Shown here in pieces: positions 19,321 to 50,400 of a stretch of DNA of 64,000 nt. The DNA is taken from the NCBI RefSeq assembly GCF_009914755.1, contig NC_060928.1, one strand, 5' to 3'. The stretch is from the human T2T-CHM13v2.0 reference genome, Homo sapiens. The notes below the pieces were generated by a model, which saw only the letters and a list, made by a program, of their open reading frames with translations, made no database searches and was not told the origin of the DNA. Made by a program: the position numbers and the translations under genes. Position 1 is the stretch's first letter. Each line of letters opens with the position of its first letter.

Positions 19321-20064
19321 GTAATTTCATGACCTGTCACTTAGGATTTTTGTCCCTCAAAATGATCAAAGTGCCACGAACACGTGGGATGACAGCATCA
19401 TCTGCACCACCCCATGCCGTGGAGGAAGAGCTGGGTTTGGGCATCAGGAGGTCCAAGTCTCTGCTATCATCCCTGTGCTGGGGTGGTCACCCATCCCCCA
19501 GGGCCATGTCACCTCACTCAGGAAATTGAGGTGATCAATGACTTTAGCAGAAGCTGGTTTTAGAGCAAAGTCCTTTGCAGGGTCCTGAGGGATGAAGCAG
19601 GGGAGGAGGGAACAGCTCCTGTTCTGTGGCTGGAGGTCCCAGGAGCACCACACACCTGGGCTCCCAGCCACTTGGAGGACAGGCTGGAGGGGGAGGCACC
19701 CGGGGTGAGAAGGGCAGGTGAGGGGTGGCAGGCCACTAATGACCCCAGGGCAATCAGGATAAGGCTGACCATGGCTTAAGAGGTGCTGTCCCATGTGACA
19801 GTGTGGAGGGGTGGACTGTGGCTTATTCACTGGAGGCTTTGAGAAACAGCCAGCACATCCCTGATGTGAGGCCGGTGGGTCTCCCTCAGCCGCAGTGTCA
19901 CAGAGATCTCCCTGCTCTGCTGGCTAAGAGATTTCACTCCAGCCCACCTTGGAACTTGGCAAAAGGCCCAAGACAATGCCCAGATTCAGCTGTGTGGCAT
20001 CTCGATCTCACCCACTTGAGCGCTTCTCCACCCCAGCAGGCCCGCTGCCATCAAGGGCTTACCC

Positions 20065-21100
20065 TGTGGGCTGCCCACGCTGCTGTAACCAGTGACCACA
20101 AGCTCCGTGGTGTTGAGAAGCACATGTTTCTCCTCCCACGGCTGTGTAGGTCCGGAGTCCTACGGGCTCAGCCAGTCCCCCTGCTCCAGGTTTAACCAGG
20201 CCGGAATCAAGATGCCAGGGCCTGGCTGTGCTTTGGAGGCTCTTGGTGAGAACCTGCTTCTGGCCTGGTGCAGGGTGTGGCAGAATCCCGATGCTTGAGT
20301 TTGAATGGTGAAATTTATGCTCCAGCGTGGCTGGGCCATGGTACTCAGATATTTATTTAGTCAAACCATATTCTAAATGTTGCTGTGAAGGTAATTTTTT
20401 TTCTTAAAGATTAAGATTTAAATCAGGCCATCTGCTTCACCTGATTGGATGTGGGAGGGCCTCATCTGATCAGGTGAAGGCTTTCAGAGAAAAGGCCACA
20501 CTCCCTATGGAGGAAGAGAGGATTTCGGCAGCCGACGGACTCAGACTGGAGCTTCAGCACAACTCTTCCCAGCCTGCCAGCCTGCCGTGCGGATTTTGGA
20601 CTTGACAGCCCCTGCAACCACACACACACACAGACACACACACACACACACATACACATACACACACACACGACCTCTGGGTTCGGTTTATCTGGAGATA
20701 AACCGAATGATACACCATCCTGGGACCGAGGTCCCTATCCCTTGCTGATAGCCAGTGGGGCTGTCCCTAGCCCTGCAAGGCTCCCTGAATCCCCTATCAC
20801 ACTGTCCTTACATCTTCCAACCAGCAGTGGCAGGTGGAGTCTTTCCCACTCTTTGGATCTCTCTGACTTCTCCTACACTGCCCTGACTCCAGCCTGATGG
20901 AGTTCCCTGTTTCTAATGCCTTCTGTGCTTAGACCAGGCCTTCCCAGATAATCCAGGACAATCTCCCTGTCTTAACATCTCTGATTAGTAACTGTAATGA
21001 CATCTACAAAATCCTTCTTGCAAAATTACATTATATGCAATGTGACGTTCACAGGTACCAGGGTATGGATAAATCTGGGGGACCCAATTTGGCTGCCACA
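20065..21100 (-). mobile_element. MLT1-type MaLR LTR split by a nested MLT2 LTR
   Basis: gctgctgtaaccagtgaccacaagc at the start; cccagataatccaggacaatctccc...ttcacaggtaccaggg at the end. Confidence 0.65.
20300..20714 (+). mobile_element. MLT2 (ERVL) LTR with internal (CA)n
   Basis: tggctgggccatggtactcagatattt, gttgctgtgaaggta, gatgtgggagggcctcatc, ttttggacttg, (CA)n, terminal ...gataca. Confidence 0.8.
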
Positions 21101-22369
21101 TTTGCCCTTGGTGAGCTTTATCCCCTTCCTCCCCCTTCACACCCCCAGAGCTCTCAGCTCCTCCAGTGCATCTAAACCTGCTCTGGGGCCCCTCATCCCA
21201 CCAAGATGTCAATAGCAGAAAATAAGCCCCTAGTGGGACTACCTTCTATCAGGCATCAGAGGCAGGCTTGGAGGGACTCATTCTCTGTGGTGGGACCTCA
21301 GGCAGGAGACGCTGGGTCACGGAGCACTGTGTGGATGTGCTCCACACCAGGCTGTGGCACAGGATGCTGCCAGTCCCCAGTGGTGAGGACCCTGCACCAT
21401 CATGTTCAGCAGAAGACCAGCCATGCAGGCCCTGTAGTCACCACATTCATTTATTTTCCCCCTTCAGTCACCCTGTGTCAGTTAGCTACTGCTGCGTAAC
21501 AAACAGCCCCAATTTAGCAATTTACAATAACCATTTGTTTAGCTCATTCAAGAGTGAAGGGCTGAGGCCATTTTTGTGATCCACTGTGTTCCTCAAGCCC
21601 TAGACCCACCCAGCTCAGCAGCCAAGGAGGCAGAACCTTACAAGTTGCAGAGTCTTACAAGTTGTGGCAGTGTTAGGATTAGTCTTCAGCTGCCTGGTGT
21701 TTGAGGCCATCCAAGCCTGGCTCCACTCCACTGCCACCTTCCCCCATCCAACTCCCCACCAAGGTGACATCTCATGGCTGTGCCAGACCACGTTCAAGCT
21801 ACACCCTGCAGCACTGCCCTGGCCACAAGCAAAAGCCTCGCGCCCCTTCTGCTGGCCAGCCCATCCTGCAAGGCAGACTGGGAGCCTTCTCTGGGTGACC
21901 GTGGGCAAATCAATCAGCCTCTCTGAGGCTTGGTTTTGTCAACTGCAAAATCGAGGTGCTGATATGATGTGCCTCCCAGGACCATGTGCAGATAAGTGAT
22001 GGGAGGGTGACCATATGCATTGCATAGCCTGCCCCAAAGGCACAGCCTCATTCTGGCAGGTTCTGGGGGCTGCTCCTCTGGTCAGCTTGCCCTGGGCCTG
22101 CAGAATCTTGACTTGAGCCCCCAGGGGTGGGGTGCGGGTGGGCTTCAGGTGGTGGGCCTGCCCCTGCAATGTTGGAGGGGCTCTTGAACCAAGAATGGTG
22201 TGATGCTTAGGTCACCTCTTGTTTGGGGCTGGAAACAGGTCCTGCTGTGGCCTGAGCTGCGGTGCAGGGACTCTCTCTGAGGGGTTTCAGCTTGCCCCTC
22301 CTCGTGTTTGGGCTCCCCATCATCACCCTGGCTCACACGGTACAAAACTCCTCTGGAAGCCTGTGCAGG

Positions 22370-22480
22370 TCGGGGGACCCAGGTTGCAAGTGACAGAAAC
22401 AAAACCAAACTGGCTGAAACAAAAAAGTGACTTTATTGGCTTATGTGATGGAAAAGCCTGGAGGTTAATCCCGGGCTCTG
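22370..22480 (-). mobile_element. Old MLT1 (J/K/L-like) LTR fragment
   Basis: ggttgcaagtgacagaaac...aaactggct...tttattggcttatgt motif. Confidence 0.55.
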
Positions 22481-22865
22481 GGCGTGGTGGAATCCAGGAG
22501 CCGAACCCCGTTCTTGGGATGGAGTCTCCTCTTCTTGCAGTTCTGCTTTAGTCTGAGGGAGGCTTGTGCTTTCCGGTGGTAAGAACAGCCCGGCTCCTGC
22601 CCTCTAGGGTGAGGAGAAATGCCTTCTTTTCGGGAGTTCTGGATAAAGCCCCGCATGGAAGCTCCCCGAGTTGCCTGGGGCCGTGCACCAACCCTAGACC
22701 CCTCTGGCCTAGGGGATGGTCTGCTGTGAGTGCCGCTCCTGATGCGGCTGCCTTAAGAGCTGGGGAGGGATCTGTTCCTTGCAAGGCAAGGGACAGTGAG
22801 TGGGAAGAGGGTGGGCTCCCAAGGGGCTCTCTCCAAAAAGGTGAGGGTGCCGGGCAGGTGCCTGG

Positions 22866-23042
22866 GGCAGAGTCCAGGCAGGAGCAGAGGGCACACACCA
22901 GCAGAGCGAGTTGAGTCCAGGCGGGAGCAGAGGGCGCACACCAGCAGAGCGAGTCGAGTTCAGGTGGGAGCAGAGGGCGCCCACCAGCAGAGCGAGTCGA
23001 GTCCAGGCGGGAGCAGAGGGCGCACACCAGCAGAGTGAGCCC
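22866..23042 (+). repeat. 43-bp minisatellite, 4 copies
   Basis: Unit GAGTCCAGGCGGGAGCAGAGGGCGCACACCAGCAGAGCGAGTC starting at 22870, 22913, 22956 and 22999. Confidence 0.92.
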
Positions 23043-23464
23043 AGAGGGTTTAAAGAAGGGGCCGTCTCTACGGTATGGGTAGAGTCAGGGGAACTAGGAA
23101 AGGACAGAGCAGAACCTGGGGTAGGTAGCCGGGGAGCCAGGGCTGACCCACGCCTGAGGACAGGAGGGACGCAGGCAGACCCCAGAGGAGGGCCCGGGCC
23201 GCCCAGCAGTCCATGGCAGGGAGACGCAGGCGCTCCTGCCCAGGACCGGGAGAAGGGGTCTGGGGATAAAACCCCGATCTCTCTCGCCCCACCCCATTAT
23301 TTTCTGTGAGCTTCCTCTTAGCCATACACGATGAGCAGCTGGTGGGCAGGGGCGCCCCTTGACACAGCCATACGGGATACGGGTAAGGCTGGGTGGGGGT
23401 GTCTGGGGGGCACACAGAGAATAACCAGCACACAGCCAAACCCGTGCTCTCTAACCCGTCAACA

Positions 23465-24900
23465 GAAACTTAACAATAAGTGTTCATAACCTATACGAAG
23501 GCAATCATAAAACACTCCTGAAGACACAAAAAAAACCCGAAATAGAACAGTTAGGATGTTCCAGCATCACCGAGATGTCAGCTCTCCCTAATTTAGGGTA
23601 TAAATTTAATGCGATTCTAATAACAACCCCATGCGTTTCTCTTTCAAAGAGAGCTAGAACTGATACTAACGTTCACATGGAAAAATAAACAAGCCTTGCC
23701 AGGGAAGGGCGGGGTGAACGGGGCCAGCCCTATCAGACGCTAAAGCACGCAGTGGGGCCTCTTTAATGAGAACAGTGCCTAATGACACAAAAATACACAG
23801 GGCCGTGGGAGAGGAGGGACAGAGACAGGCCCCCCGCTGACGCCGTGTGTGAGGAGGGGGCGCTCCAGTCACTAGAACGGTCTTGGTATTTCACATAAAA
23901 TGGTACTGGGACAAGTGGAAAACCATTTGCAAAAAAGATAAAATTAGATCCATTTCTCACACCATGCCCAAGAATAAACTCCAAGTAGATGGGAGTCCTA
24001 AATGCAAAAAACTGAAATATACAAATGCTAGAAGCAAACATTTGTGAATTCCTCTATAAGAGCAATGAAGAAGGGCTTTCTGTGACTACAAATCCAGGTG
24101 TAATCAAAGAAAATATTCATACAATTGCCAATGAAAGCAGCTTATGCAAGGAAAAAACTAAGCAAAACGAAACGACAAATGAACCAGGAGAAAATATTTG
24201 GAACTCGCTTCCTAGAGAAAAGGCTCATGTCTCATGTCTCTACTACACAAAGAACTTTTCAAAGTTAAGAAGCACAAATGCAAAGTGTAAGAGCTGCTCT
24301 GCTCTAATCCCACGACCTTCCCCACAGCGTCGCCGGCAGGGTGTGTCCTCAGACGTTTGATTTTTGCCAATGTGATGGCAGAGAAGTGTTTCCTTGGTGT
24401 GGCTTCAATTTGCATTTCTCTTCTGTGAGGAAGTTGAACACCTTTTCAGGCAGCTAAGGGCCGTTTTTACATCCCTGCTTGGGAACTGTGTGTTCACGCA
24501 GTTTGCTGATTTTTTCTATAAGACTTCTAGAAGATATTGATAAGTGAAAGAAAGCACCACGCCAAACAACACAGTAGTACGCTGCCTGTTGCACGGAGTG
24601 TAGATACGACTGCCTGTCTTTACAAGCAGCAGCACAGGAAGAATAAACAAGACAACAATTAGATTAGCTTCCTGCAGGGAGTGGGGGAGGGGCGGGGAGG
24701 GATTCTCCAGGGAGGCAGCCCAGCACACCTTTTCTGCACTTCTGACTTGCAGAAGCATATTCGTGTTCTACCTATTAAATCAGGAGGTATGAGAAAGGGA
24801 AAAATAAAATGGACAGAAAACGGGAAAAATGGGCAAATTACATCTCAAATGAAGAACACAGCCACAGTGGAAACCAAAAAGAAATGAAGAACTAATCCAA
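23465..24900 (+). mobile_element. Old L1M (ORF2 3' end/UTR) remnant with an inverted internal segment
   Basis: A-rich L1 motifs (aaatggtactgggacaagtgg, ccatttctcacaccat, ataaactccaagtagat); ~24290-24520 reads as antisense L1 (tttttgccaat, aatttgcatttctc). Confidence 0.75.
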
Positions 24901-25160
24901 GAAGCCATGAACACGGTGTCTGTCCGGCAGCCTCAGGCAAGGTCAGAAGGTAAGCGGGGAGTGCGAACGGGCCCAGGGCAGCTTCTCTGGTGCATGAGTT
25001 TTACTCTTGTAGTGGAATGAACATGGCCACACTAAAGGCATCACAGGCGCTGGCACAGCCGTGCACACCAGGTCACACATCCACGTCACTGGAAGAAGAG
25101 ACAGACCATCAGGAACGTGGAGGGCCAGGAAGAACCCCTCAGGCAGGGACTGCACGTCAG

Positions 25161-25773
25161 CGTGAGTCATGCTCTCAGAAACACGCATGCGTGAGTCATG
25201 CTCTCAGAAACACGCATGCGTGAGTCATGCTCTCAGAAACACGCATGCGTGAGTCATGCTCTCAGAAACACGCATGCGTGAGTCATGCTCTCAGAAACAC
25301 GCATGCGTGAGTCATGCTCTCAGAAACACGCATGCGTGAGTCATGCTCTCAGAAACACGCATGCGTGAGTCATGCTCTCAGAAACACGCATGCGTGAGTC
25401 ATGCTCTCAGAAACACGCATGCGTGAGTCATGCTCTCAGAAACACGCATGCGTGAGTCATGCTCTCAGAAACACGCATGCGTGAGTCATGCTCTCAGAAA
25501 CACGCATGCGTGAGTCATGCTCTCAGAAACACGCATGCGTGAGTCATGCTCTCAGAAACACGCATGCGTGAGTCATGCTCTCAGAAACACGCATGCGTGA
25601 GTCATGCTCTCAGAAACACGCATGCGTGAGTCATGCTCTCAGAAACACGCATGCGTGAGTCATGCTCTCAGAAACACGCATGCGTGAGTCATGCTCTCAG
25701 AAACACGCATGCGTGAGTCATGCTCTCAGAAACACGCATGCGTGAGTCATGCTCTCAGAAACACGCATGCGTG
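25161..25773 (+). repeat. Perfect 29-bp VNTR, 21 copies, each with an AP-1 site
   Basis: Unit CGTGAGTCATGCTCTCAGAAACACGCATG; first copy at 25161, last at 25741 (580 = 20 x 29); no variant unit seen. Confidence 0.98.
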
Positions 25774-25817
25774 CGTGAGCACGTGCAGACGCGTGTCCTC
25801 GTGTGCCTGTCTTTATG

Positions 25818-25820
<3 letters not shown>

Positions 25821-25850
<30 letters not shown>
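25821..25850 (+). repeat. (GT)n microsatellite
   Basis: About 14 GT units read directly. Confidence 0.9.
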
Positions 25851-25851
<1 letters not shown>

Positions 25852-25859
25852 TCTGGGTG

Positions 25860-27440
25860 ATGTGCCTGTGTGCATCTCTTAGGTCTGTCGGCTGAAAGGC
25901 CTAAAACCCTTCTATCTTTGACACTGGCACCCAGACCTTGCCACTGGCTCCCAGACCTTGGTTGCTAATATATTACCCATTATATACCCAGACCTTGGTT
26001 GCTAATATATTACCCATTATATTACCAGGGCTCCTCAGAGAAGTGGCTGATTTTAGGGCTGGTGCAAGAAAAGTACAAAAATAGCCTGGAACATCATGTT
26101 ATGCCAGAAAGTAACGAGGCACACACACAGGCAAACAAAGGTGGCATGTCACAGACTCCAGAGCCAGCACGGAGGGGCGCCTTCTGACCAAATTTGGAAC
26201 CATTTGAGCACCAAAATATGGAAGTACAGCAATGAATCACAAATCCTTGAAAAAAAAATGGGGATCCAAAAGAACATACTATAGTAGCTGACGGATGATT
26301 GATGGCCAGAGAGATAGAGATGATTGATAGGTCGATGATGTGTAGAAGATAGACAGGTAGGTACATGATAGGTAGATAGACAGATGATAGATATGTGACA
26401 GGTAGGTAGCTAGGTAGGTAGATGGATTACACAGATAGCTGATTGATAGACGACAGATTGAGAAATAGATGGATAGATAGATAGGTAGGTGACTGATGGA
26501 TGATAGGTGAGATGGAAGGGCTGTTGTTTCAGCGGAAGGCCAGCTGCTGACTGGTGAATGTCGGGGAAGTGCCGGGTTCCAAAGCTGACGTTCTGGCCGG
26601 CGTCGTTCACGGGACATTCCTCCAGGGGGAGCTCTGGTGAGGAGCAGACCGTGTCCATGCTGGTAAAGCGTCCCCCGCCCCGACCCCCGAGAGTGCCCCT
26701 GAGCTGGAAGGAAACACTGAGCGGTTGTCCAGCAGATCACTCCGCAGCTCCTCCATCAGAAACATCACCAGCATCAGAAACAACACCAGCAGTGAGAGGC
26801 GAATGGACATCCTGTGCCCAAGAAAGACACACACTCTTTCTTGTGGCGCTGAAGCCAAAAATGTGCAGGCTCCGTCCAGTCCCAGGAACTGCCAGACGAC
26901 CCCAAATGAGGACCCATCTATTAAAAAAAAGCCCCGTGTTCTTCCCAAATGTCAGCAGTGTACATGACCAAAACCATGGAAATGTTCCAGATGAAAGAGA
27001 ACCACAGAGACAAGACGCATCAATGCAACACCTGACCCCAGAGTGGCCCTGTGCTGGAGGACAAGAGCCGTGAAGGACATTCTGGGGTCAGCTGGGAACA
27101 CGGGAACACAGCTGGGAGAGAGGACTGTGTTAGGATGCGGCTGTGATGGCAAGCTCGTATCCTAACACAGTTAGGGATGATGTGGGAAGAGCTGTCTGTC
27201 TCTAGGGTCTCTTTAAAGGCAAGGAGGTGTGATACATGCTTGCAACTTAATACCGAATGGTTCAGAAAAGTCACCCGCAGCGCACCAGCAAGCAAGCCAA
27301 TGAGAAAATAAATGGGGCAGGCTGGGCGCAGTCATTAAGCCCAGGTGAAAGGTCTATGCTGTTCTTGTACTATTTTTATTTTTGTAGTTTTTCTGTTGTT
27401 TGAAATTATGTCCAAACAAAATGTTGAAAAAAACAACACA
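25860..27440 (+). mobile_element. L1MC-like 3'UTR remnant with degenerate (GATA)n at ~26290-26515
   Basis: ccagggctcctcagagaagtggctgatt, cctggaacatcatgttatgccagaaagt, gttcttgtactatt...tttgaaattat..aaacaaaatgtt end motifs. Confidence 0.65.
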
Positions 27441-27864
27441 ACGAAAACCCTGCTCTCCACCAAAGTGTCTAAGTGAGGCACACAGACATCGCATGCAAGC
27501 AAATCGCTGCTGTTTGCAAAAATCTTGCAAAGCGGCCAACTCATGCCCCCTACCTAGTTACCCCTCCAGGAACCCTTGAGATAAATGATGCAAGAACACC
27601 CCACCATCATAATAATAAAGCTTGTACAGTAATAACAATTATAATCTGCTGTAATAACGAACCCCCGTGTGTGCACACCACTTCACAGTTTATAAAGCAT
27701 TTACCAGACTCCATCAGATCGTCACGGCAGCGAAGTGAAATGTGTGCTCTATAAATGATGCCTCAATAAAGTTGTCAAGTTTTTAAAGGGGAGTCTTGAT
27801 ACCTGTTTTGCCGGGCTGTGGTGAGGATGAAGTGAAATCAGAAAAGGACAAAGCTTTGGGAATT

Positions 27865-27990
27865 CTGAAGCAGCTTCTCAAACGGTGGTCTCTCGGCCCA
27901 CCTGGATGGCAGTCCCCCAGGGAGCCTGTTGCTGTGCAGATTCCTGGGGGCTGTCCCCAAAGCTCCAGAGAGTCTGGGACCCTCCCTTGT
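27865..27990. mobile_element. MER5-like hAT fragment
   Basis: cagcttctcaaacggtggtc...tgcagattcctggg motif. Confidence 0.45.
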
Positions 27991-28406
27991 AGCTCCCCTG
28001 GGGAAGCCAGACCAGAGTGCAGCTGCAGAAAGGGCAGGCAGAGGCAGGAGCCCAGCCCTGGTGCCTGGTGCCCTGGGTGGCTGGGCCCAGAGCTCAGAGC
28101 ACTGCCCAGGGAGCATGGTGCCTCAAACTGAGCCCCGCCCTGGGTAGGGGGAGCTGCCCACACTGACCCTTCGCAGACTTTCTCCAGTGGGCGAGTGGAG
28201 TGGGCAGGCTGTGGCCCCTCATATCCCCTGGATGCCCGCCCGGTGGAGCTCGGCTATAGGCGATCCCTAACAAGCGCTCCAGGGCCCTTGCATTCCAGGT
28301 CGAGCTGGGCGGGGTGGCTGTGCTATCAGCGAGCCCCCAGAAGCTCGCTCAGAGGGAGTGCATTTGAGCCAGCACCCAGTTGCCACCTGAGACGCAGAAG
28401 GCTTTC

Positions 28407-28853
28407 CTTTTTCAAAATTAAAAACAATTTAATTGCGGTCAAATACACAGAACATAACATTTACCATCTAAACCAGTTCCGGAGTGTTCAGTACATCCAC
28501 ACTGTGTCCCACAGCCACCACCACCAAACCTCTCCAGGATGTTTTCAGTAAACCAGAAGATGTCCCCATTAAACAACTCCCGGGCCTCCCTGGCACCCAC
28601 CCTTCTATTCTCTGTCTCTATGAATTTGACTGCTCTAGGAATCCCATGTAAGTGGAATTGGATAATGTTTGTCCTTCTGTGACTGGCTGATTTCGCTGAG
28701 CATGGTGTCCTCAAGGGTCATCCATGTTGTAGCCTGTGTCAGAATGTCCTTCCTCTTCAAGGCTGAATAATATTCTGTGGTATGGATGGACCACACTGTG
28801 TTTATCCATCACCTGATGACGGACATCTGGGTGGCTTCTGCCTTTCAGCTATT
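28407..28853 (-). mobile_element. L1MB 3' end
   Basis: aacataacatttaccatc, ctatgaatttgactgctctagg, catccatgttgtagcctgtgtcagaat, aggctgaataatattc. Confidence 0.88.
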
Positions 28854-30324
28854 GCGTTGCAGTGGGAAAGCAGCCAGGGACAGCATTGTTCCTGAACAAA
28901 CGTGTGCAGCTGCTTTACCAAACCAAGTGGCGGGCCCAGCAGTACCAGCGGCTTGGGGGTGGGAGATGCACCAGGACCAGGCAGAGGACCCAGAGGGTCT
29001 GATCCCCAAAGGCTGTGGCCCTGCATGTGTGCAGGAGGCAGGGAGATGCAAACAACAGACACAGGCTGTGCACTGCTGCCAGCTGCAGCAGCAGGGACAG
29101 AAGGGAAAAACCAAGATCTGCAAAGCCATCCGTGTCTCATGAAAAAGGGTGGCCCCTGGCCTTGCCTTTCTGGAGCAACATACGTAGACGTGGGTGCACA
29201 CCCACACACGCCCCCACATGCAGGGCACGTGAATGAGTCCCCAAAGCTTCCAGAAGCACCAGCCGGGCAGTGCAGAATCAGACCAGGAGAATGAGAGGCT
29301 GCCCCCACTCCCCCAGCACCGTGTGCCACTGGGAAGAGTCTCCAGGGACGTTTCCGTGCTCCTGGGTAGCCCCGGGCTCTCCTTGTTCTTTCCAGCTGGA
29401 GCTGGCACTGGCTGAGCTCCTACTGTGTGCCAGGCCCTGGGCCAGGCACAGGACACACAGGCCCCTCCAGTTCCACCAGCAACCTGAGGAGGCGTTAGGT
29501 TGGGCCCAACCCAGACGGCCCACGAGGGCACAGGGAATTCAAGTGAGCTGCTGGAGGACCCACGGCCATCGAGCGGGGGAACCAAGACACAGAGCTGTCA
29601 GCTGCCAGCCCAGGGACCCCAGAGGTGGAAGGGCCATTTGCTGTGTCTCCTGGGCAGACCCTCTGGGCCTCATGTCCTGCTTGGCTCTCCTGAGCCTTCT
29701 CTTCCACACCACGGGACAGCAGTGACTGTCTCAAGGGGTCACAGCAAAGATTAATCAGATCATGTAGGTGAAGTTCCTGGGCGTGGTTTGCCCTCTAAAA
29801 GGTGGCTCTTGCTCCTGGGAGCCCCCACCATCCAGTCACAGCTGGAGCCAGGTCCGCCTAGCACCCCGGCCCTGCTAATTGAATAAATATTCATTCGTGT
29901 TGAGTACCCAAGTACCATGGTTTCCATGGCTACCCACTCCTAATGGCTTAATGAGACAAGGGCCCAGATTTTCCAAAACCCACATGAATGCCGGTCCCGA
30001 TGGGAAGCGTGCCCATCCCATGGGGCGGGCCTTGCTCAGCTCCCTTTGGAAACATCAGAGACAGAGTGGCCTGTGGTCCAGGAGTGGGGATTCAACAAAC
30101 AGCCGTCAGCCGTCAGCGTGTGTGGATGGGCAAGGTCTGTGAAACCCCAGCCCGAGGCCGGTGGAGTCGGAGAGCCTGGGCCCTGCATCACCCCGCACGC
30201 CACGCTGCCTCCCTTCCACCTGTTGGTTGGTTTCACTACATGCCAAGCGTGTCTCCCGTAGCAAACATGAGCCCAGAGCCCCGGCCCCTGCTGCCACGGC
30301 CCTGAGCCCTGCAGAGCCATGTCA

Positions 30325-30363
30325 TGTGCGTGTGTGTGTGTGTGTGGGTGTGTGTGTGTGTGT
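30325..30363 (+). repeat. (TG)n microsatellite, interrupted
   Basis: Read directly. Confidence 0.85.
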
Positions 30364-33300
30364 CACCTGCCCCGCCCTGCCCACTAGGCACTGTTGAAAG
30401 GGGTCAGGGCCATGCACCATCTAGCCCTGTCCTGCCTTTCTATTTTACCCATCCTCGCTCCTCTTCCTCACTAGTCTCTGACTTTCTGTCCCCCTCCCAG
30501 CTGAAACCAGAACGTGCCCCATGGACCTGATGCTCAGGGACTGTCTGGGGGGCCAGCAATGATGATCAGGGTCAGGGGCTGTAGGAAAGGTGGGTCCTGG
30601 CTGCCACCTTCGTCACCAGCAAGAGTAGATCTCAGGCAGTCACAGCCGGTGGGACATGCCCACGTGTCTGCCCCCCTCTGGTGAAGAAGCAGTCACAGGA
30701 CCATGCCCTCAGCTTCCAAACCTCCCGAGTCCCACTTGAGTGCTCCTGGTTGGCAGAACCCAGCAAGAGGCGATGGCGCCCGGGCAGTGCAGGGGAGAGC
30801 AGAGGAGAAGCTGCACTGAGTGGCCCGTGGTCCATCTGGCCATGGCCCAGGGCGGCCCTGCACCTGCAGACATAAGGCCTCGGGCAGCCACTCTGGACAC
30901 AGAGGTGGGAGCAGGAGGGTCGTGCCACACACATTTGTTCATGAATGATCCTGTCCCTTTGCAGCTTTCTCAGGAACCCCAAGAGCAGGTGAGATGCCTG
31001 GCCAGGGAGCTTAGCACAGCCGTGGGCTGGCCTGCAGGCAGCCAGCTGCCGTGCCAGTCACCAAGGCGGGGCGGTCAATGGAAATGCTCCACTAAGTCAG
31101 GCACAGATGTGGGGAGATAGCACCTGCGACCTTGGACTCCCCATAGGTGGCCCGGAGTGCTGGCCTTCCTCATGCACACTCCACTGTTTATATTTAAACA
31201 GCATGAGGTTCCCACCCAGGGAAGCAGCCTGGTCACTTGGGAAGAGTCCTCCACCAGAGAATGCTCCCTGGCAGGACTGATAATGAAATTGAAGCAACGA
31301 CTGAATGCCGCCACAGCAGCCTCGGGATGTGAGCTGGGGTTGGGCAGCTGGGGCTTCCCTCCTTTCTGGGAGCTGGCCCCGCTTGAGCCTGCAGAGCAGG
31401 TCTGCTGGGGACCGGAGGTGGATGGCAGGCCGGCTCAGTTCCCACAGTAAGGGTGTGCGGCAGGAACACAGCCGGGCGCCTGGTGTCTCCAAGAACCCTG
31501 CGAGGGGCCTGCACCACTCTCCACTCGGGGTGGGTTCTGCAGGGTCCTGGAAGACGGTGGTAGGTTGTGTAGAGCAAGGGAGAAGGGACCCCATAGGGAA
31601 GTCGGCAATGGTGAGGGCCGGCACCACGCCAGGGCCTAGGGGAACCCAGCAGTGCTGGAGGCCTCCCAAGAGGGTGGCAGCCCTGCCTGAGCCTGGCCTG
31701 GCAGGGAGGGCTCTGGGGAGACCGTACCCCACCTCTGTCCCACACCTCGAATCTCAGCCAGGGGAACAGTTGGGAAAAAGAGGCCCAGGTAGAGAGATCA
31801 GGAGCAAGGTAAGCCAGGCTACCCTGTCCCTGTCCCCTCCCACCAGGCCGGTCACCTCATGCCCCAGCCCAGGGCCCCTCCACCTCTGTCCCCTGGAACG
31901 CTGAGGCTCGGCACACCCTGCAGTTTGACCTGGGGGACTCCTGCAGGTTTTACACCCCCTCCCTTGGCACCTTTGGCTGCATCTGCCGGCTGAGGAGAGA
32001 GGGGGTTGACCTGGCCACTCTCAGCCCAGAACCTGCCCGAGAGCAAGCAGGACTGAGGATGCCCACTCTCCCCACCTCCGCACCCACCTGCCAGCCATTC
32101 CTGAGGATCCCACCCCGGGCTGGTCCCAGGTCCCTCCCCTGAGTAGCCCCGGAGGGCACAAGAGGCAGCCAAAGAATGAGTCCACGTCCCCTCATCCCCA
32201 TGCTGGGGCCTTGGCAGCCCTCAGGCGTCCTGAGGAGCCCAGGGGGGATCTAACCCTTCCAGGGGTGCAGGAGGGCTTCCTGGAGGAGATGGCTGGGCTG
32301 TTCTTGGCGGCTAAAGAAGAGCAGGCCAAGACGGTCAGGGTGGGACAGGCATTCTGTGCTGAGGCACCCTTGTGGGAGGGCACTGGGGGGGCACGGGGAC
32401 AGAGCAGAGCCTGGTCTCCTGGAGTGGCACCTGTGGGGCAGGAGGCATGAGGAGGGGCACAGGCTCCCAGCCACCCCTGGGGGCTCCTGGCTGGGCTGCA
32501 CTCCTGCCCAAACAGCGAGGGAGATCCCTGGAAGGTCCCTCCTGGCGAGGCCCAACTGGCCTGGGCTCAGGCAGCTCCCCTGAGGCCGAATGCCCCATGG
32601 CCAGCCCCCCCGACACACTGGGGGAGTGCATGGGGCAGGGGCAGAATGGCACCTGAGGCATGCAGTTGTGGTCCCTCTGCCCCCCGAGGCCTGGCGCTTA
32701 GGGCTGGCTGGTGGGGGGCAGGGGACGTGGGGGCGGTGGAATTCCCCTCCTGGGCACTGGCGGGCCTTGCCGCCGGTGCTGTAAGTTTCCCAAAGACACC
32801 TGCACTTCACCTTCTCCCTTCCCTCCCAGCTACGAAGGCAGGGGCGGACCTCCAAGACCGCGGCAGGCGGGGGTCCTGTGACCTGGAACCAGGAAGGGTG
32901 CCTCCTCGGTCATGAAAAGGAGGAATGTGCCTCCTCGCAGGATTTGTATTTTATTTCCTGCAATTGAAACAATATCTGGTGTGAGGCATCTAATTACCGC
33001 TCTTTCCTAGAAATTGAGCGATAACACATCCTGTCGATACAAAGCTTTTGTTAGAGTCAAACACAGTTTCCCAGGGCAATTCCAATGAACACTGCACTCA
33101 AAAGTACTTTGGTTTTTAAATAGTTTCTCTAAGTATAATACCGAGCCTGATGCAATCTACTTCATCTTTTGTTCTGGCTCTATTTCGAAAGTACCTTTGT
33201 ACTCCTGTGTTCCTGCATAACAATAGCTGATAGTTCCTGCTCACTTGAAGAAGATCCCACCCAATTAGAATTTTTAGAAGTGGGAGAGCCTTTAGAGAAA

Positions 33301-33518: not shown

Positions 33519-33642
33519 CCCCAACCCTGACCCTAATCCTCACCCTACCTAACCCCATCAGCACCCAACCCTACTCCAACCCTAACCCAACCCCATCAAC
33601 ATCCCAACCCTAGCCCTGACCCCAACTCCAACCACCTTCCAA
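33519..33642 (+). repeat. Degenerate (CCCTAA)-like hexamer repeat
   Basis: ccctga ccctaa tcctca ccctac ctaacc ... ccctaa cccaa ccctag ccctga. Confidence 0.7.
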
Positions 33643-41079: not shown

Positions 41080-41750
41080 CGCATATGTGTGTACACATCC
41101 ATATATGCGAAGCCATGTGTGCACATGCATGACTGGTGTCATGCATAGGGACAGATGTGTGCAGCACAGGCATACACACGTGTGTGCAATGTGCATGGAT
41201 TCGTGTTATCTGCACAGGGAAGGCTGTGCGTGCCCGCAGTATGCACAGGTGTGTGCACAGCATGGGTGCATCATTTCTACATATGCCAGTGTGATACATA
41301 TGCATGTGTAGACATACGTGTGCAAAAAGCACGTGTGTATGATAGTGCATATGTATATATGCACCTGCATGTGAAGAGTACATGGACATGTGTATGCACA
41401 CGCAGGCATGTGTGCATGTGTGGGAACATGTATGTGTGCATACATGTGTGTATATTCTGTAGGCATGGATGCACTGTAAATCCACATGGTATATGTAGAC
41501 AGTGTGTGTGTGGATGTGTGCATGCATGTGTGTGTGAAGGCATGCAAGTGTGCATGAATAGGTTGCATGCTTGCATGCATGTGTGGATATGTGTATGTAT
41601 GGGTGTTCATGCTTGCATGAACACACGTGTATTCATGATATGTATATTCATGTGTGTGCATGGATCTATGTGTGCACAAGGATGTGTGTGGATACATATA
41701 TGTGTGTGGACACTGTACATCTGCGTATGTGCATGCATGCCTGCATGTGC
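41080..41750. repeat. ~670-bp degenerate (TG/CA/TA) alternating purine-pyrimidine tract
   Basis: tgtgtgcatgcatgtgtatgcaca-type sequence throughout. Confidence 0.9.
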
Positions 41751-45187: not shown

Positions 45188-45415
45188 GCCGGGCCGAGGG
45201 CGGGGCCGCGCGAGGACCCCGGGACCTGCCCCCCTCCCCCCGCAGCCGCGTCGCCGCTCGCTCCGGGCGCCTCCTGCTCTGCACTTACACGCTCGGCAGC
45301 TGCGGGGAGCCCGGCAGCCACGCTCTCCGGCGCGCCGCCCGCGGAGCCACCACGGCCGAGGGCCGGCTGCTGGGCGCCGCGGTCCCCGGCGGGCGCGCCC
45401 GAGCAGCAGGCGGCG

Positions 45416-45490
45416 ATGCGGGCGCCGACCCCGGCTGGGGGGCGCCCGAGCTGCCGCGGCTGCGCCCCGGCTCCAGGAGGGACGGCGTAG
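45416..45490 (+). other. uORF2 (24 aa, [24 protein letters not shown])
   Basis: gcgATGc at 45416; TAG ends 14 nt before the main ATG; out of frame with the CDS. Confidence 0.55.
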
Positions 45491-45504
45491 CTCGCGGGAG
45501 GACC

Positions 45505-46893
45505 ATGGCGTCCCCGGCGCTGGCGGCGGCGCTGGCGGTGGCGGCAGCGGCGGGCCCCAATGCGAGCGGCGCGGGCGAGAGGGGCAGCGGCGGGGTTGCC
45601 AATGCCTCGGGGGCTTCCTGGGGGCCGCCGCGCGGCCAGTACTCGGCGGGCGCGGTGGCAGGGCTGGCTGCCGTGGTGGGCTTCCTCATCGTCTTCACCG
45701 TGGTGGGCAACGTGCTGGTGGTGATCGCCGTGCTGACCAGCCGGGCGCTGCGCGCGCCACAGAACCTCTTCCTGGTGTCGCTGGCCTCGGCCGACATCCT
45801 GGTGGCCACGCTGGTCATGCCCTTCTCGTTGGCCAACGAGCTCATGGCCTACTGGTACTTCGGGCAGGTGTGGTGCGGCGTGTACCTGGCGCTCGATGTG
45901 CTGTTTTGCACCTCGTCGATCGTGCATCTGTGTGCCATCAGCCTGGACCGCTACTGGTCGGTGACGCAGGCCGTCGAGTACAACCTGAAGCGCACACCAC
46001 GCCGCGTCAAGGCCACCATCGTGGCCGTGTGGCTCATCTCGGCCGTCATCTCCTTCCCGCCGCTGGTCTCGCTCTACCGCCAGCCCGACGGCGCCGCCTA
46101 CCCGCAGTGCGGCCTCAACGACGAGACCTGGTACATCCTGTCCTCCTGCATCGGCTCCTTCTTCGCGCCCTGCCTCATCATGGGCCTGGTCTACGCGCGC
46201 ATCTACCGAGTGGCCAAGCTGCGCACGCGCACGCTCAGCGAGAAGCGCGCCCCCGTGGGCCCCGACGGTGCGTCCCCGACTACCGAAAACGGGCTGGGCG
46301 CGGCGGCAGGCGCAGGCGAGAACGGGCACTGCGCGCCCCCGCCCGCCGACGTGGAGCCGGACGAGAGCAGCGCAGCGGCCGAGAGGCGGCGGCGCCGGGG
46401 CGCGTTGCGGCGGGGCGGGCGGCGGCGAGCGGGCGCGGAGGGGGGCGCGGGCGGTGCGGACGGGCAGGGGGCGGGGCCGGGGGCGGCTGAGTCGGGGGCG
46501 CTGACCGCCTCCAGGTCCCCGGGGCCCGGTGGCCGCCTGTCGCGCGCCAGCTCGCGCTCCGTCGAGTTCTTCCTGTCGCGCCGGCGCCGGGCGCGCAGCA
46601 GCGTGTGCCGCCGCAAGGTGGCCCAGGCGCGCGAGAAGCGCTTCACCTTTGTGCTGGCTGTGGTCATGGGCGTGTTCGTGCTCTGCTGGTTCCCCTTCTT
46701 CTTCAGCTACAGCCTGTACGGCATCTGCCGCGAGGCCTGCCAGGTGCCCGGCCCGCTCTTCAAGTTCTTCTTCTGGATCGGCTACTGCAACAGCTCGCTC
46801 AACCCGGTCATCTACACGGTCTTCAACCAGGATTTCCGGCGATCCTTTAAGCACATCCTCTTCCGACGGAGGAGAAGGGGCTTCAGGCAGTGA
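45505..46893 (+). CDS. ADRA2C: Alpha-2C adrenergic receptor (class A GPCR), intronless, 462 aa
   Basis: Strong Kozak accATGg at 45505 and 1389 nt to TGA. Protein [21 protein letters not shown]...[14 protein letters not shown] has 7 hydrophobic helices, N-glycosylation sequons N19/N33, LASAD (TM2), amine-binding Asp in ALDVLFC (TM3), DRY, a long Gly/Arg-rich ICL3, CWFP, NPVIY, and a C-terminal F(x)6IL plus penta-Arg with no palmitoylation Cys, all typical of alpha2C. Confidence 0.99.
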
Positions 46894-46960
46894 CTCGCAC
46901 CCGTCTGGGAATCCTGGACAGCTCCGCGCTCGGGGCTGGGCAGAAGGGGCGGCCCGGACG

Positions 46961-47007
46961 GGGGAGCTTTCCCAGAGACCCGGGGAGCTTTCCCAGAGAC
47001 CCGGGGA
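46961..47007 (+). repeat. 21-bp tandem duplication in the ADRA2C 3'UTR
   Basis: GGGGAGCTTTCCCAGAGACCC x2 followed by GGGGA. Confidence 0.95.
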
Positions 47008-47425
47008 TGGATTGGCCTCCAGGGCGCAGGGGAGGGTGCGGCAGGGCAGGAGCTTGGCAGAGAGATAGCCGGGCTCCAGGGAGTGGGGAGGAGAGAGGGG
47101 GAGACCCCTTTGCCTTCCCCCCTCAGCAAGGGGCTGCTTCTGGGGCTCCCTGCCTGGATCCAGCTCTGGGAGCCCTGCCGAGGTGTGGCTGTGAGGTCAG
47201 GGTTTTAGAGAGCAGTGGCAGAGGTAGCCCCCTAAATGGGCAAGCAAGGAGCCCCCCAAAGACACTACCACTCCCCATCCCCGTCTGACCAAGGGCTGAC
47301 TTCTCCAGGACCTAGTCGGGGGGTGGCTGCCAGGGGGCAAGGAGAAAGCACCGACAATCTTTGATTACTGAAAGTATTTAAATGTTTGCCAAAAACAACA
47401 GCCAAAACAACCAAACTATTTTCTA

Positions 47426-47431
47426 AATAAA
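47426..47431 (+). terminator. Polyadenylation signal of ADRA2C
   Basis: AATAAA about 530 nt after the stop, preceded by an AU-rich stretch (ATTTA 47376-47380) and followed by GT-rich sequence. Confidence 0.85.
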
Positions 47432-50400
47432 CCTTTGTAATCTAATGTTGGGTGCCGCAGTCAGTCCTTGAGCTTGGGGGCTGGGGGTATCTTCCAGACC
47501 CTCACCCTGCCTGACACCCTCCCCCATCTCCCCCACCCCACAATGCTGGACGGAGGGCACCCTGGGCCTCCGGGTTACAACTTCCTTCTTGCATGAGAAG
47601 GAGGGGTCTTGCTTTTTCTCAAGCTAACCCTTTATGTACATGGAAAATATGTACTCAAAATTCCTGTGCTGAGAGTAGCGAAGAGGTGAAAGGAGCCTAG
47701 AACCCCCAAGTTGACCCCAAGTTTAGATTCTGGGGGACTGTCTTCCCTGCATTCCCATCCCTGCCCCCTGCCCTTCCCCACTCTGATATTCAGGGCCTCC
47801 GGTGGAAAGAGGTGGGGCTCTTCCAGTCCAAGACTGAGAGTAGCTTTGAGCTAGTCCTCCTGGCTCTGAACATTTTGTGGGCGTGGCTCTTGGGTGGAGA
47901 GAGGGTGGGCGTGAGGCCGGCAAGCCCCCACACCATCACTCTTAGGCCAGAGGCCTGGCCAGAGCCAGGTTGAACAACAGGCACTTTCTTATTTCCGAAA
48001 CAAACTGAAAGTCATTGAGGCCCCAGAGCAGTGGAGTGGAACAAACCAGCAATGTCTGGAGAGGGGCCTGGGGCCGGCCTGTTTCCTGTGGTGCCCCCAG
48101 GGTCTTCCCAGTGCAGCCCTGCCTTTCCCCCTTGCTCCACCGTGAGGCCCAGCAGGTGTCCACACTGTTCACACTGCTGCTTGAGGAAGGGCAGTGGAAA
48201 GTGGGGGACAGAATACCAAGGTGGGCTTCCTGGTGCTGGGCCTTCATGGTGTAGGGACCACTCAGACTCAGCCGTGTCACAGGGCCTGGAAGTTGTCAGG
48301 ATGGCTGGAGGGGAGGGGCAAAAGCGGGACCTGCGCCTGGCAGGAGCTGGGCAGGGGTCCCCCCAACACACACGCACAGACAGCTCGGTAGGCGTGTGGG
48401 GGCTGTGTCAGGCCTCCTGCTTGTGACCATCCATTCCCCATTCCCGTCCCCCTTCCCATCCCTGGGAGGCCCCCCTGGGCTTCCCTATGTGTACCCTCCC
48501 CTGCCAGACCCTGCCTGCTGAGCCCAGCCCAGATCCATCCTGGATACCCACCTCTCTCTTTGGCATGGGGGGCCAGGGTCTGCCTGGGGAGGGGTCAGCC
48601 CTGGGTCCTGTGTTCTTCTGCAAGCCCCCGTCCGCGAAGTCAGGTTCCAGAGCAGGGGGACCTGACTTGCCAGAGTTGGCCCTTGGAGAACCCCCTCGCC
48701 GCAGCTGCCTGGCTTCCACCCCAGATGATGGGTCTTCAGGATACCCCAGCTGGGAAGAGCTCTCCCAGCCGTGTCCACAGCTGGCACATGTGCTAATGCT
48801 CACACCTGCTGTGTGCTAGTCTCAGACACAGGTGGGGAGATACAGACAGCAGTGGGGGCAGGGGAGGGGTGGAGAACATGGCCAGTCAAGGCCGATGAGG
48901 ACATCCCTGACCTCCCCCAACCAGACCTGGGCAGGGAGTCCTGAACTGTTGGCCCAGCTTGTCCTGGAGCTGTTGTACTGGCTCAGACAAATCCCTGCTC
49001 TCTGGGCCTCGGTGCCCCACCTGGGAAGTGGAGGGGGTCCTGGGAGCCCTCTTGGGCCCTGCCAGGCCTGCCAATCTGTTGGGCAATCTATCCCCTGAGC
49101 CTGGGACCACAGGAGACCCCACCTCAGAGACTCCATGGCTGACATCGCACCCAGGGACACTCTGAGGGCAGGCCTTGGGCTGCGAGAGAATCACTGTACA
49201 CACATGAAAAAGACTCCAGAGCTCAGGATTTCTGCTCCAGAATCTGCATCTTACCAAGCCGGCAGGAGGGGTCCAAAACTCACAACTGCAAGACGGGAGG
49301 GCAGACCCCCAACCCCTCACCTGCCAGCACTCAAGACCCCAAGTCCCGCCCAGGGCACCCTTCCCTTGAGAGCACCAGCATTTCATGGGATAACTCGTAC
49401 ATTTCATGGGACTCAGAGAGGTGGATTAACCTGCCTGAGGTCACACAGCTGGTGATAAGACCCAACAGGGCCCAGGTTTCCTGGCCCCAAATTCAACCAG
49501 ATAACAAGTATTTCTTGAGTATCTCCACCATTTCCTACTGCCTCCTGGGAGGTCTTCAGGAATGGGCAACTTCCCACAGCTGAGGGCAGACCCCACGTGG
49601 AGGCACAGCATGATGAGCAAGGGTTTGGAGGTAGGAGGTGCAAGTGTGTTTTAGGAAATGGGGTGCCAGCATGGGGAGGGGGAGACAATGCAGACAGGAG
49701 GCTGGACAGAGGGGCCGTGTGCCAGGCTGCAGGGGAGAAGCTGGTGGGAGGGTGCTTGGACAGAGTGTCAGGTTTTGATCTGACCCCCTGGGGGCTGTGA
49801 GGTCTGCAGAGGAAATGCAACCTCCCAGGGCTGGAGCCTGCCCTGTCACCTGCTCAGCAGTGTGGCCGACTGAGCATGTCACCTCTGAACTGCAGATCCT
49901 CCTCCCTGCAAGGGGATAACCACAGCCCCCCCACACCCAGGGATCCTGGGAGATTAACTTCGAGGATACAGCAGGGCACGCAGCCTGGTACACGCTCGGG
50001 GAAGAATGTCAGCAAACCTTCCTCCTCTTCCCGTCCTGACCCTGCCAGTCACACCCTCCAGGGCTATGGCCGGGACTGCAGCCGGCAGATGTTCACCACT
50101 CGATCTTGGTTGCCGCCTGGAGAGACTTTCTTTTCAGCTGGATAAACAGAGACAGAAACCTGGCTTCTCACCCTGCCTGCTGCAGGGACACGTGTCACCT
50201 TGCTCTGAGTCCTGGTGTCTTCATCCATGAAGGGGGCACTGACACCCACCCCGAGGGTAAGATGAGCCCCGAGTGCCTCCAAACCCAGCCCAGGAACCAC
50301 CCGCCAAGGGGACTTCTCAACGCCCAGAGCAGGGCCCTCCCCTCTGCCGACCTGTCCACCACGGCCCCTGACTTCCTGAGTGGCTCTCCTCTCCACGGAC

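What the first reader, a model, noticed from the sequence alone, without database searches (positions are those of the whole stretch)
25161..25773. Perfect 21 x 29-bp VNTR forming an AP-1 site array ~19 kb upstream of ADRA2C: a candidate copy-number-tuned enhancer
Seen: 21 identical units, each with consensus AP-1/TRE TGAGTCA (ATGACTCAC on the minus strand) overlapping a perfect 12-bp palindrome CACGCATGCGTG at the unit junction. The palindrome is NRF1-like, has the AhR core GCGTG on both strands and two CpGs. Each unit also has CTCTCAGAA, one mismatch from a STAT GAS site. Full homogeneity with CpGs intact, inside an otherwise decayed L1 region, implies recent expansion and likely length polymorphism. 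Known: multimerised TREs make strong JUN/FOS-responsive enhancers, and ADRA2C in cutaneous vascular smooth muscle is induced through cAMP-Rap1-JNK/AP-1. Inference: this may be a natural methylation-gated AP-1 rheostat whose repeat number modulates ADRA2C and is poorly tagged by SNPs.
Basis: partly seen in the sequence, partly recalled or inferred. Interest (0 to 1): 0.8.

Follow-up and report, generated by a model that had tools for sequence, protein, structure and literature searches.

The report
Polymorphic 29-bp minisatellite carrying AP-1 sites
A perfect 21-copy, 29-bp tandem repeat about 19.5 kb upstream of ADRA2C is a real, already catalogued, length-variable human minisatellite whose units each carry an AP-1 site, but nothing yet shows that it controls ADRA2C.

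Summary
Window 25160-25773 is 21.17 identical copies of a 29-bp unit. Each copy has a consensus TGAGTCA, the 12-bp palindrome CACGCATGCGTG and CTCTCAGAA. The unit occurs nowhere else in the T2T genome. The "decayed L1" context is not supported.

The locus is already in a published VNTR catalogue (Lu 2021 supplement). It is 330 bp in GRCh38, 417 +/- 60 bp across 18 assemblies and 614 bp here, so it varies in length. That catalogue flags it as not an expression QTL.

Most likely this is an ordinary, actively turning-over subtelomeric minisatellite that amplified a unit which happened to hold an AP-1 site. That makes a homotypic AP-1 cluster inside a RefSeq "enhancer" feature. AP-1-dependent activity in some cell types is plausible but not shown here.

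Control of ADRA2C is unsupported. The known AP-1 response is assigned to a promoter site.

AP-1 VNTR enhancers are a known kind: LTR10A/F, the PDYN 68-bp VNTR, and MORC3-restricted repeats. I rate this a new member of a known kind, of modest interest.

The parts
25160..25773 (+). Minisatellite (VNTR): 21.17 identical copies of the 29-bp unit GCGTGAGTCATGCTCTCAGAAACACGCAT. Each copy has one consensus TRE (TGAGTCA at 25163 + 29n) and a 13-bp alternating purine-pyrimidine tract (ACACGCATGCGTG) that holds the 12-bp palindrome.
   Evidence: Unique in the genome: 21 forward, 0 reverse and 0 control matches at up to 3 mismatches. Formally a CpG island by composition. No open frame of 50 aa or more crosses it on either strand.
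25774..25850 (+). Right junction: a CGTG-rich degenerate stretch (GCGTGCGTGAGCACGTGCAGACGCGTG...) that runs into a perfect (GT)15 microsatellite at 25821-25850.
   Evidence: a 17-bp and a 31-bp alternating purine-pyrimidine run. Only 10 of 29 positions match the unit in register.
24564..26018 (.). RefSeq functional-element 'enhancer' that spans the array plus 596 bp of left flank and 245 bp of right flank.
   Evidence: Hub annotation table only. The underlying assay was not visible to me.
26038..26208 (.). RefSeq functional-element 'silencer' just to the right.
   Evidence: Hub annotation table only.
23897..24485 (.). Old interspersed repeat fragments (about 23897-24205, and 24356-24485 in opposite orientation), 67-81% identical to dozens of loci. 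Not L1-like.
   Evidence: query positions 797-1105 and 1257-1386 of 23100-25159; paired opposite-strand hits at C2:99.47 Mb and C1:40.96 Mb.
45283..47445 (+). ADRA2C, the proposed target, 19.5 kb downstream of the array.
   Evidence: Hub annotation. No consensus TRE lies in the 4.3 kb upstream of its start (41001-45283). One-mismatch sites lie at -3184, -2918, -2689 and -1027.

Best explanation
This is a locus-specific, actively turning-over subtelomeric minisatellite (VNTR) on 4p16.3. A 29-bp unit that happened to contain a consensus AP-1 site was amplified by replication slippage or unequal exchange. The unit's self-complementary, alternating purine-pyrimidine segment probably favours this. 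The array continues to gain and lose units, so alleles differ in length: about 11 copies in GRCh38, about 14 on average in 18 assemblies, and 21 here. A by-product is a homotypic cluster of 11-21 AP-1 sites inside an annotated regulatory element. It probably binds JUN/FOS-family dimers and adds open chromatin or enhancer activity in AP-1-high cells. A measurable effect of its length on ADRA2C is not shown and is unlikely to be large. Shown: anatomy, uniqueness, polymorphism, absence from one eQTL list. Inferred: mutational mechanism, AP-1 occupancy, enhancer contribution.
For: Perfect 21.17 x 29 bp array. The unit is found only here in 3.1 Gb. The flanks are unique, non-L1 DNA. A published catalogue gives 330 bp in the reference and 416.8 +/- 60.1 bp in 18 assemblies, against 614 bp in this genome. 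Five units of single-stranded DNA fold to -38.7 kcal/mol against -25.5 +/- 3.2 for shuffles (z = -4.1; 0 of 200 shuffles as good). There are 21 alternating purine-pyrimidine tracts of 13 bp or more. GTGAGTCAT fits R-TGAGTCA-Y (consensus recalled). The hub table places a RefSeq enhancer over the array. Precedents: the 28-30 bp AP1-motif VNTR in LTR10A/F, where motif number correlates with H3K27ac and FOSL1 signal; tandem repeats with AP-1 motif clusters restricted by MORC3; and the PDYN 68-bp VNTR with one AP-1 site per repeat. The AP-1 content needs no selection. A random 29-mer unit holds a consensus TRE with probability 0.0035, so about 114-260 such VNTRs are expected among 32,138-73,582 catalogued loci. 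Genome-wide, TGAGTCA triplets spaced 10-40 bp give 729 matches, against 527 for the reversed word.
Against: I could reach no binding, accessibility or methylation data. The RefSeq enhancer could owe its activity to the 596-bp unique left flank, since short reads cannot be placed inside a perfect array. The locus is eqtl = False in Lu 2021, which argues against any strong length effect on nearby genes in the tissues tested. In the MORC3 study most restricted tandem repeats had no gene-regulatory effect. No ape or pangenome sequence was available, so the timing of the expansion is only bounded by a rough calculation.
Confidence: 0.6

Rival explanations
1. The array is a copy-number-tuned, methylation-gated AP-1 enhancer (a rheostat) that sets ADRA2C expression, for example in cutaneous vascular smooth muscle through cAMP-Rap1-JNK-AP-1.
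For: 21 consensus TREs. Length polymorphism. A RefSeq enhancer over the array (hub). ADRA2C is induced through EPAC/Rap1-JNK-AP-1 in microvascular smooth muscle. No consensus TRE lies within the 4.3 kb upstream of the ADRA2C start, so a distal site is not excluded. Copy-number-dependent AP-1 VNTRs exist.
Against: eqtl = False for this locus in a GTEx-wide VNTR scan. The literature places the responsive AP-1 site in the alpha2C promoter. Distal ADRA2C elements validated by CRISPR and reporter assays lie elsewhere (hg19 chr4:3.5976 Mb). No paper links a VNTR here to ADRA2C. The TRE has no CpG. The GTEx scan may not have sampled the relevant cell type, so this is weak negative evidence.
Confidence: 0.08
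2. A neutral, inert minisatellite. It is methylated and nucleosomal in essentially all tissues. The AP-1 words are never used, and the RefSeq enhancer call reflects the unique flanks or an episomal-assay artefact.
For: TRE-bearing VNTR units are expected by chance in the hundreds. The reversed-word control is of similar size. eqtl = False. The intact CpGs say little, because the expected wait for a first substitution in the array is about 60,000 generations (recalled mutation rates). Most motif-cluster repeats had no regulatory effect.
Against: The RefSeq enhancer feature is centred on the array (hub). High-affinity TRE multimers are among the strongest known synthetic enhancers (established knowledge). 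In LTR10, AP1-motif number correlates with H3K27ac and FOSL1 signal.
Confidence: 0.27
3. A length-dependent repressed motif cluster. Short alleles act as weak AP-1 enhancers, but alleles above a threshold number of motifs recruit MORC3/DAXX-type silencing. The effect of length would then be non-monotonic, and linear eQTL tests would miss it.
For: MORC3 restricts accessibility at VNTRs with homotypic SPI, AP-1 and SP/KLF clusters. With SPI motifs, repression emerged above 15 motifs. Alleles here appear to span that range (about 11 to 21 motifs).
Against: Neither the locus coordinates nor the unit's 14-mers occur in the 11 supplementary files of that study. The listed chr4 cluster is at 7.54 Mb. 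The AP-1 case there rests on model predictions in monocytes. The threshold was measured for PU.1 sites, not AP-1.
Confidence: 0.05

Closest known systems
LTR10A/LTR10F internal VNTR (Ivancevic et al., Sci Adv 2024, PMC466953; passages read)
   Same: A 28-30 bp unit with one AP1 motif. Up to 33 copies in the reference. Length-polymorphic in people. Motif number correlates with H3K27ac and FOSL1 signal.
   Different: That VNTR lies inside an endogenous-retrovirus LTR present in hundreds of copies. This unit is found only at one locus, in unique flanks. Beyond TGAGTCA it shares no sequence with the 28-29 bp TRE arrays seen on chr1.
MORC3-restricted tandem-repeat enhancers (Krumwiede et al., EMBO J 2026, PMC13373173; abstract and sections 7, 11, 13 read)
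   Same: A VNTR with a large homotypic transcription-factor motif cluster. AP-1 clusters are among those reported. The study used the same danbing-tk VNTR framework that catalogues this locus.
   Different: This locus is not found in that study's supplementary files. The validated examples are PU.1 clusters near IFNB1 and TWIST2.
PDYN promoter 68-bp VNTR (stated in PMC3934978, introduction passage)
   Same: One AP-1 site per repeat. More repeats were reported to give higher expression.
   Different: 1-4 copies of a 68-bp unit in a promoter. Here there are 11-21 copies of a 29-bp unit 19.5 kb from the nearest coding gene, and no expression association.
Generic subtelomeric GC-rich minisatellites (danbing-tk catalogue, Lu et al. 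2021, PMC8275641)
   Same: This locus is an entry in that catalogue. The window holds at least seven other arrays with units of 17-43 bp and four or more copies.
   Different: It is the only array in the window with more than 2.2 copies that is 100% homogeneous, and it has the highest score (1228).

Membership tests
Minisatellite / VNTR | Head-to-tail copies of a unit of about 10-100 bp | tested here: met
   29 bp x 21.17 copies, 100% matches
Minisatellite / VNTR | Copy number varies among individuals | tested here: met
   330 bp in GRCh38 and 416.8 +/- 60.1 bp in 18 assemblies (Lu 2021 supplement), against 614 bp in this genome. This is a literature look-up plus one assembly, not my own genotyping.
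Minisatellite / VNTR | Locus-specific rather than part of a dispersed element | tested here: met
   21 of 21 genome-wide matches at up to 3 mismatches lie here. The immediate flanks are unique.
AP-1 motif-cluster VNTR enhancer (LTR10 / PDYN type) | A consensus TRE in each unit | tested here: met
   21 TGAGTCA with R...Y flanks
AP-1 motif-cluster VNTR enhancer (LTR10 / PDYN type) | AP-1 (JUN/FOS) occupancy and active chromatin | not testable with these tools
   No ChIP, ATAC or methylation data could be reached. Only the hub's RefSeq 'enhancer' row covers 24564-26018.
AP-1 motif-cluster VNTR enhancer (LTR10 / PDYN type) | Copy number changes expression of a target gene | tested here: inconclusive
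   eqtl = False in Lu 2021. The locus is absent from the eQTL supplements I searched for Lu 2023 (5 of 6 files), the Cell Genomics 2024 paper and the Nat Genet 2026 paper (2 small files). The relevant cell type and the accuracy of length calls are uncertain.
LTR10A/F VNTR | Lies inside an LTR10 element and shares its unit | tested here: not met
   Flanks are unique. The unit has no match elsewhere.
   0 of 105 frames hit RT or L1 Pfam families. Dispersed matches are 100-420 bp.
CpG island | More than 200 bp, GC above 0.5, CpG o/e above 0.6 | tested here: met
   614 bp, GC 0.52, o/e 1.04. The criteria are recalled.
CpG island | Unmethylated in the germline or in tissues | not testable with these tools
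   No methylation data. Intact CpGs are explained by the array's youth.
NRF1 site | GCGCATGCGC consensus (recalled) | tested here: not met
   0 matches in the window. Only the core CGCATGCG is present, 21 times.
STAT GAS site | TTCNNNGAA (recalled) | tested here: not met
   0 of the window's 8 matches lie in the array. CTCTCAGAA has one mismatch.
MORC3-restricted tandem repeat | Listed among MORC3-bound, accessibility-restricted repeats | tested here: not met
   No coordinate or unit match in the 11 supplementary files

The most novel reading that the evidence does not exclude
Allele length at this VNTR spans a switch point for homotypic AP-1 clusters. Short alleles (about 11 sites) would act as stimulus-responsive AP-1 enhancers of ADRA2C or the neighbouring lncRNA in microvascular smooth muscle. 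Long alleles (about 21 sites) would be silenced by MORC3/DAXX-type repression. This would give a non-linear, SNP-untagged contribution to cold- or oestrogen-induced alpha2C expression that linear eQTL scans miss.
Probability: 0.04. Interest if true: 0.7.

Novelty: new member of a known kind. Interest (0 to 1): 0.3.

Why it matters
If the array does bind AP-1 and its length matters, it would be a multi-allelic regulatory variant that SNP arrays tag poorly. It sits next to a drug-target receptor gene implicated in cold-induced vasoconstriction. As things stand, it is one of a predictable few hundred VNTRs whose unit happens to hold an AP-1 site. It is already catalogued as polymorphic and is not an eQTL. 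Its main value is as a clean natural test case (a perfect array, 11-21 sites) for how homotypic AP-1 cluster size relates to activity or repression.

Tried and rejected
- L1 context: rejected.
- Structured RNA: no Rfam family at gathering score in 23000-28000.
- Coding: no open frame of 50 aa or more crosses the array.
- LTR10 origin: rejected.
- PRDM9 13-mer (recalled motif): no match within 4.5 kb of the array. The nearest in 20000-31000 is at 30372.
- Inverted repeats flanking the array: only weak 17-23 nt matches, mostly GT/CA simple sequence.
- Literature on the unit: six 14-mers covering every rotation and both strands gave 0 papers in main texts.
- 'ADRA2C' + 'VNTR' gave 19 papers, by title psychiatric, pharmacogenetic or pain reviews and candidate-gene studies; none was opened. 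'ADRA2C' + 'tandem repeat' + 'eQTL' gave 4 papers, by title irrelevant.
- Bakhtiari 2021 lists only two coding ADRA2C VNTRs, not this locus (file 1 unreadable).
- Lu 2023: no hit (file 1 not searched).
- Cell Genomics 2024: no hit.
- Human-chimpanzee tandem-repeat preprint: no hit.
- Nat Genet 2026 structural-variant paper: no hit, and only 2 small files are held.
- Not seen: the Garg 2021 supplements (bioRxiv, closed); S1 Table of Lee 2018 with the coordinates of 12 ADRA2C-linked DHSs (supplement look-ups exhausted), so whether one overlaps the array is open; Eid 2008 (PMC2494767, not held), so the position of the promoter AP-1 site rests on a review legend.
- No ape, pangenome, ChIP, ATAC or methylation data could be reached with these tools.

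Full report
WHAT IS THERE

Window 25160-25773 is a tandem array with a 29-bp period, 21.2 copies, 100% matches, no indels and score 1228. A script confirmed that all 21 full units and the final 5-base partial unit equal GCGTGAGTCATGCTCTCAGAAACACGCAT. The periodicity does not extend one base further on either side.

Motif content of the array:
- 21 of the window's 22 plus-strand TGAGTCA.
- All 21 CACGCATGCGTG.
- All 21 CTCTCAGAA.
- All 21 GTGAGTCAT.

On both strands the window has 25 TGAGTCA, against 10.3 +/- 3.4 in dinucleotide-preserving shuffles, and 0 of 100 shuffles reach 25. Only 4 of the 25 lie outside the array.

The array has 43 CpGs, GC 0.52 and CpG o/e 1.04. The surrounding 500-bp bins have o/e 0.12-0.56. 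No open frame of 50 aa or more crosses the array on either strand. No Rfam family matches in 23000-28000.

CONTEXT

The claim that the array sits in a decayed L1 region does not hold.
- Whole-genome searches with the flanks returned only self-matches for about 24486-25159 and 25851-25984.
- The other matches were short and old: 100-420 bp at 67-86% identity.
- On the left these cover about 23897-24205, with an opposite-strand partner at 24356-24485. Paired opposite-strand hits at two other loci suggest an element with inverted ends.
- On the right they cover about 25985-26141, plus a (TAGA)n tract.
- I submitted 105 of the 138 stop-to-stop frames of 40 aa or more in 21000-30000 (those of 50 aa or more) to Pfam. 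None hit a reverse-transcriptase or L1 family.

The unit itself, allowing 3 mismatches, occurs 21 times in the 3.1-Gb assembly. All 21 are here, with 0 on the reverse strand and 0 for the reversed control.

The right edge runs into a CGTG-rich degenerate stretch and a perfect (GT)15.

The window is rich in minisatellites. At least seven other arrays have units of 17-43 bp and four or more copies. That is usual for a GC-rich region about 3.7 Mb from a telomere. This array is the only one with more than 2.2 copies that is perfectly homogeneous.

IT IS ALREADY CATALOGUED AND IT VARIES

Supplementary file 1 of Lu et al. 2021 (PMC8275641) has a row for hg38 chr4:3746497-3746827. Its most informative k-mer, GTCATGCTCTCAGAAACACGC, lies inside our unit. 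The row gives:
- ref.len 330.
- asm.len 416.8 with SD 60.1 over asm.n 18.
- len.vst 0.0153 and len.p 7.2e-9.
- eqtl False.

I infer that len.p is the between-population ANOVA P described in the text. I did not establish what the .acc columns (0.265 and 0.245) mean.

In unit terms, GRCh38 carries about 11.4 units, the 18 assemblies average about 14.4, and this genome carries 21.2, which is more than 3 SD above that mean.

Perfect homogeneity is weaker evidence of extreme youth than it looks. With recalled mutation rates, the expected wait for a first substitution anywhere in 614 bp is about 60,000 generations, and the 95% bound is about 180,000. The evidence for ongoing turnover is the length differences among living haplotypes.

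HOW IT PROBABLY ARISES AND CHANGES (inferred)

- Each unit holds a 13-bp alternating purine-pyrimidine tract, ACACGCATGCGTG, which contains the 12-bp palindrome. There are 21 such tracts, and a 17-bp and a 31-bp run follow at the right edge.
- Five units of single-stranded DNA fold into a long interrupted hairpin at -38.7 kcal/mol, against -25.5 +/- 3.2 for shuffles (z = -4.1; 0 of 200 as good).
- Out-of-register pairing of this kind is the classic substrate for replication slippage and unequal exchange.
- No PRDM9-type 13-mer (recalled motif) lies within 4.5 kb of the array.

IS THE AP-1 CONTENT MEANINGFUL?

GTGAGTCAT fits the optimal R-TGAGTCA-Y site (recalled). Chance alone would still supply such arrays.
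- A random circular 29-mer contains a consensus TRE with probability 0.0035. That predicts about 114-260 such loci among the 32,138-73,582 catalogued VNTRs (catalogue sizes).
- Genome-wide, three TGAGTCA spaced 10-40 bp apart give 729 overlapping matches, against 527 for the reversed word. Both counts are dominated by tandem arrays, including 28- and 29-bp arrays on chr1.
- So the array needs no selection to explain it.

The other proposed sites are weak.
- The NRF1 consensus is absent, and only the core is present.
- There is no exact GAS site.
- GCGTG is a 5-mer that occurs 71 times on the plus strand of the window.

Even so, a cluster of 11-21 high-affinity TREs is the kind of sequence that binds AP-1. 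The hub's table places a RefSeq 'enhancer' at 24564-26018 and a 'silencer' at 26038-26208. I could not see the underlying assay. The 596-bp unique left flank could account for the enhancer call.

DOES IT CONTROL ADRA2C?

I found nothing that says so.
- Lu 2021 tested 30,362 VNTRs within 100 kb of genes in 812 GTEx genomes and found 346 eVNTRs. This locus is not among them.
- It is absent from the supplements I could search for Lu 2023 (5 of 6 files), the Cell Genomics 2024 VNTR study (4 files), a human-chimpanzee tandem-repeat preprint and a 2026 structural-variant study (2 small files).
- Bakhtiari 2021 lists only two coding ADRA2C VNTRs.
- No main text in the library contains the unit.
- 'ADRA2C' with 'VNTR', or with 'tandem repeat' and 'eQTL', returned only listings whose titles are unrelated to this locus; I opened none of them.
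- The EPAC/Rap1-JNK-AP-1 induction of alpha2C in microvascular smooth muscle is real. However, a review legend places the AP-1 site in the alpha2C promoter. The primary paper was not held.
- No consensus TRE lies in the 4.3 kb upstream of the transcript start, only four one-mismatch sites. A distal site is therefore not excluded.
- The one distal ADRA2C element validated by CRISPR and reporter assays lies at hg19 chr4:3.5976 Mb, far outside this window. I could not see the table listing the other 11 linked DHSs.

COMPARISON WITH KNOWN SYSTEMS

The idea of a copy-number-tuned AP-1 repeat enhancer is established.
- LTR10A/F carry a 28-30 bp VNTR with an AP1 motif. There are up to 33 copies, it is polymorphic, and motif number correlates with H3K27ac and FOSL1 signal.
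- The PDYN promoter VNTR has one AP-1 site per 68-bp repeat, with higher expression reported for 3-4 copies.
- MORC3 restricts accessibility at VNTRs with homotypic SPI, AP-1 and SP/KLF clusters. For SPI motifs, repression emerged above 15 motifs, and most such repeats had no effect on genes.

Our locus is not an LTR10. It is not found in the MORC3 study's files. The MORC3 work does raise a non-linear alternative: long alleles could be silenced rather than more active.

VERDICT

- This is a real, perfect, locus-specific and polymorphic minisatellite that happens to multimerise an AP-1 site inside an annotated regulatory element.
- I put about 0.6 on the reading that it is an ordinary turning-over VNTR with plausible, context-dependent AP-1 occupancy and no demonstrated ADRA2C effect.
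- I put about 0.27 on its being regulatorily inert.
- I put about 0.08 on the ADRA2C rheostat.
- I put about 0.05 on a length-thresholded repressed cluster.
- It is a new member of a known kind, and interest is modest.

Noticed in passing
window 25950-26022: A perfect two-copy 37-bp tandem duplication (CCCAGACCTTGGTTGCTAATATATTACCCATTATATA), 180 bp to the right of the array and inside the same RefSeq enhancer feature. It may be another young duplication.
   Followed up: no
window 22870-23039: A 43-bp x 4.0 minisatellite, 92% matches, 2.1 kb to the left of the array.
   Followed up: no
window 33530-33612: A degenerate telomere-like (CCCTAA-type) 38-bp x 2.2 repeat, possibly an interstitial telomeric remnant.
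   Followed up: no
window 60177-60634: A 19-bp x 25 minisatellite (CCCACACGAAACTCCTCCC, 79% matches) about 13 kb downstream of ADRA2C.
   Followed up: no
window 4614-5240 and 9056-9431: A long (AGGG)n tract of about 151 copies and a G-rich 30-bp x 12.8 minisatellite. Both could form G-quadruplexes.
   Followed up: no
ADRA2C coding region (hg38 chr4:3766616-3766692 and 3767508-3767605): Bakhtiari 2021 lists two 12-bp coding VNTRs in ADRA2C. The second has a heterozygosity-test P of 2.8e-48 and was not tested for eQTL.
   Followed up: no
window, outside 25160-25773: Only 4 consensus TREs lie in the remaining 63.4 kb, against about 10 expected for the whole window from shuffles. Apart from the array, the window is if anything poor in AP-1 sites.
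   Followed up: partly
G000 C1:235493393-235495613 and C1:73025241-73025555: Other long TGAGTCA arrays with 29-bp and 28-bp units. The first has more than 75 units. They may be the LTR10 VNTRs described by Ivancevic et al., but I did not verify this.
   Followed up: no
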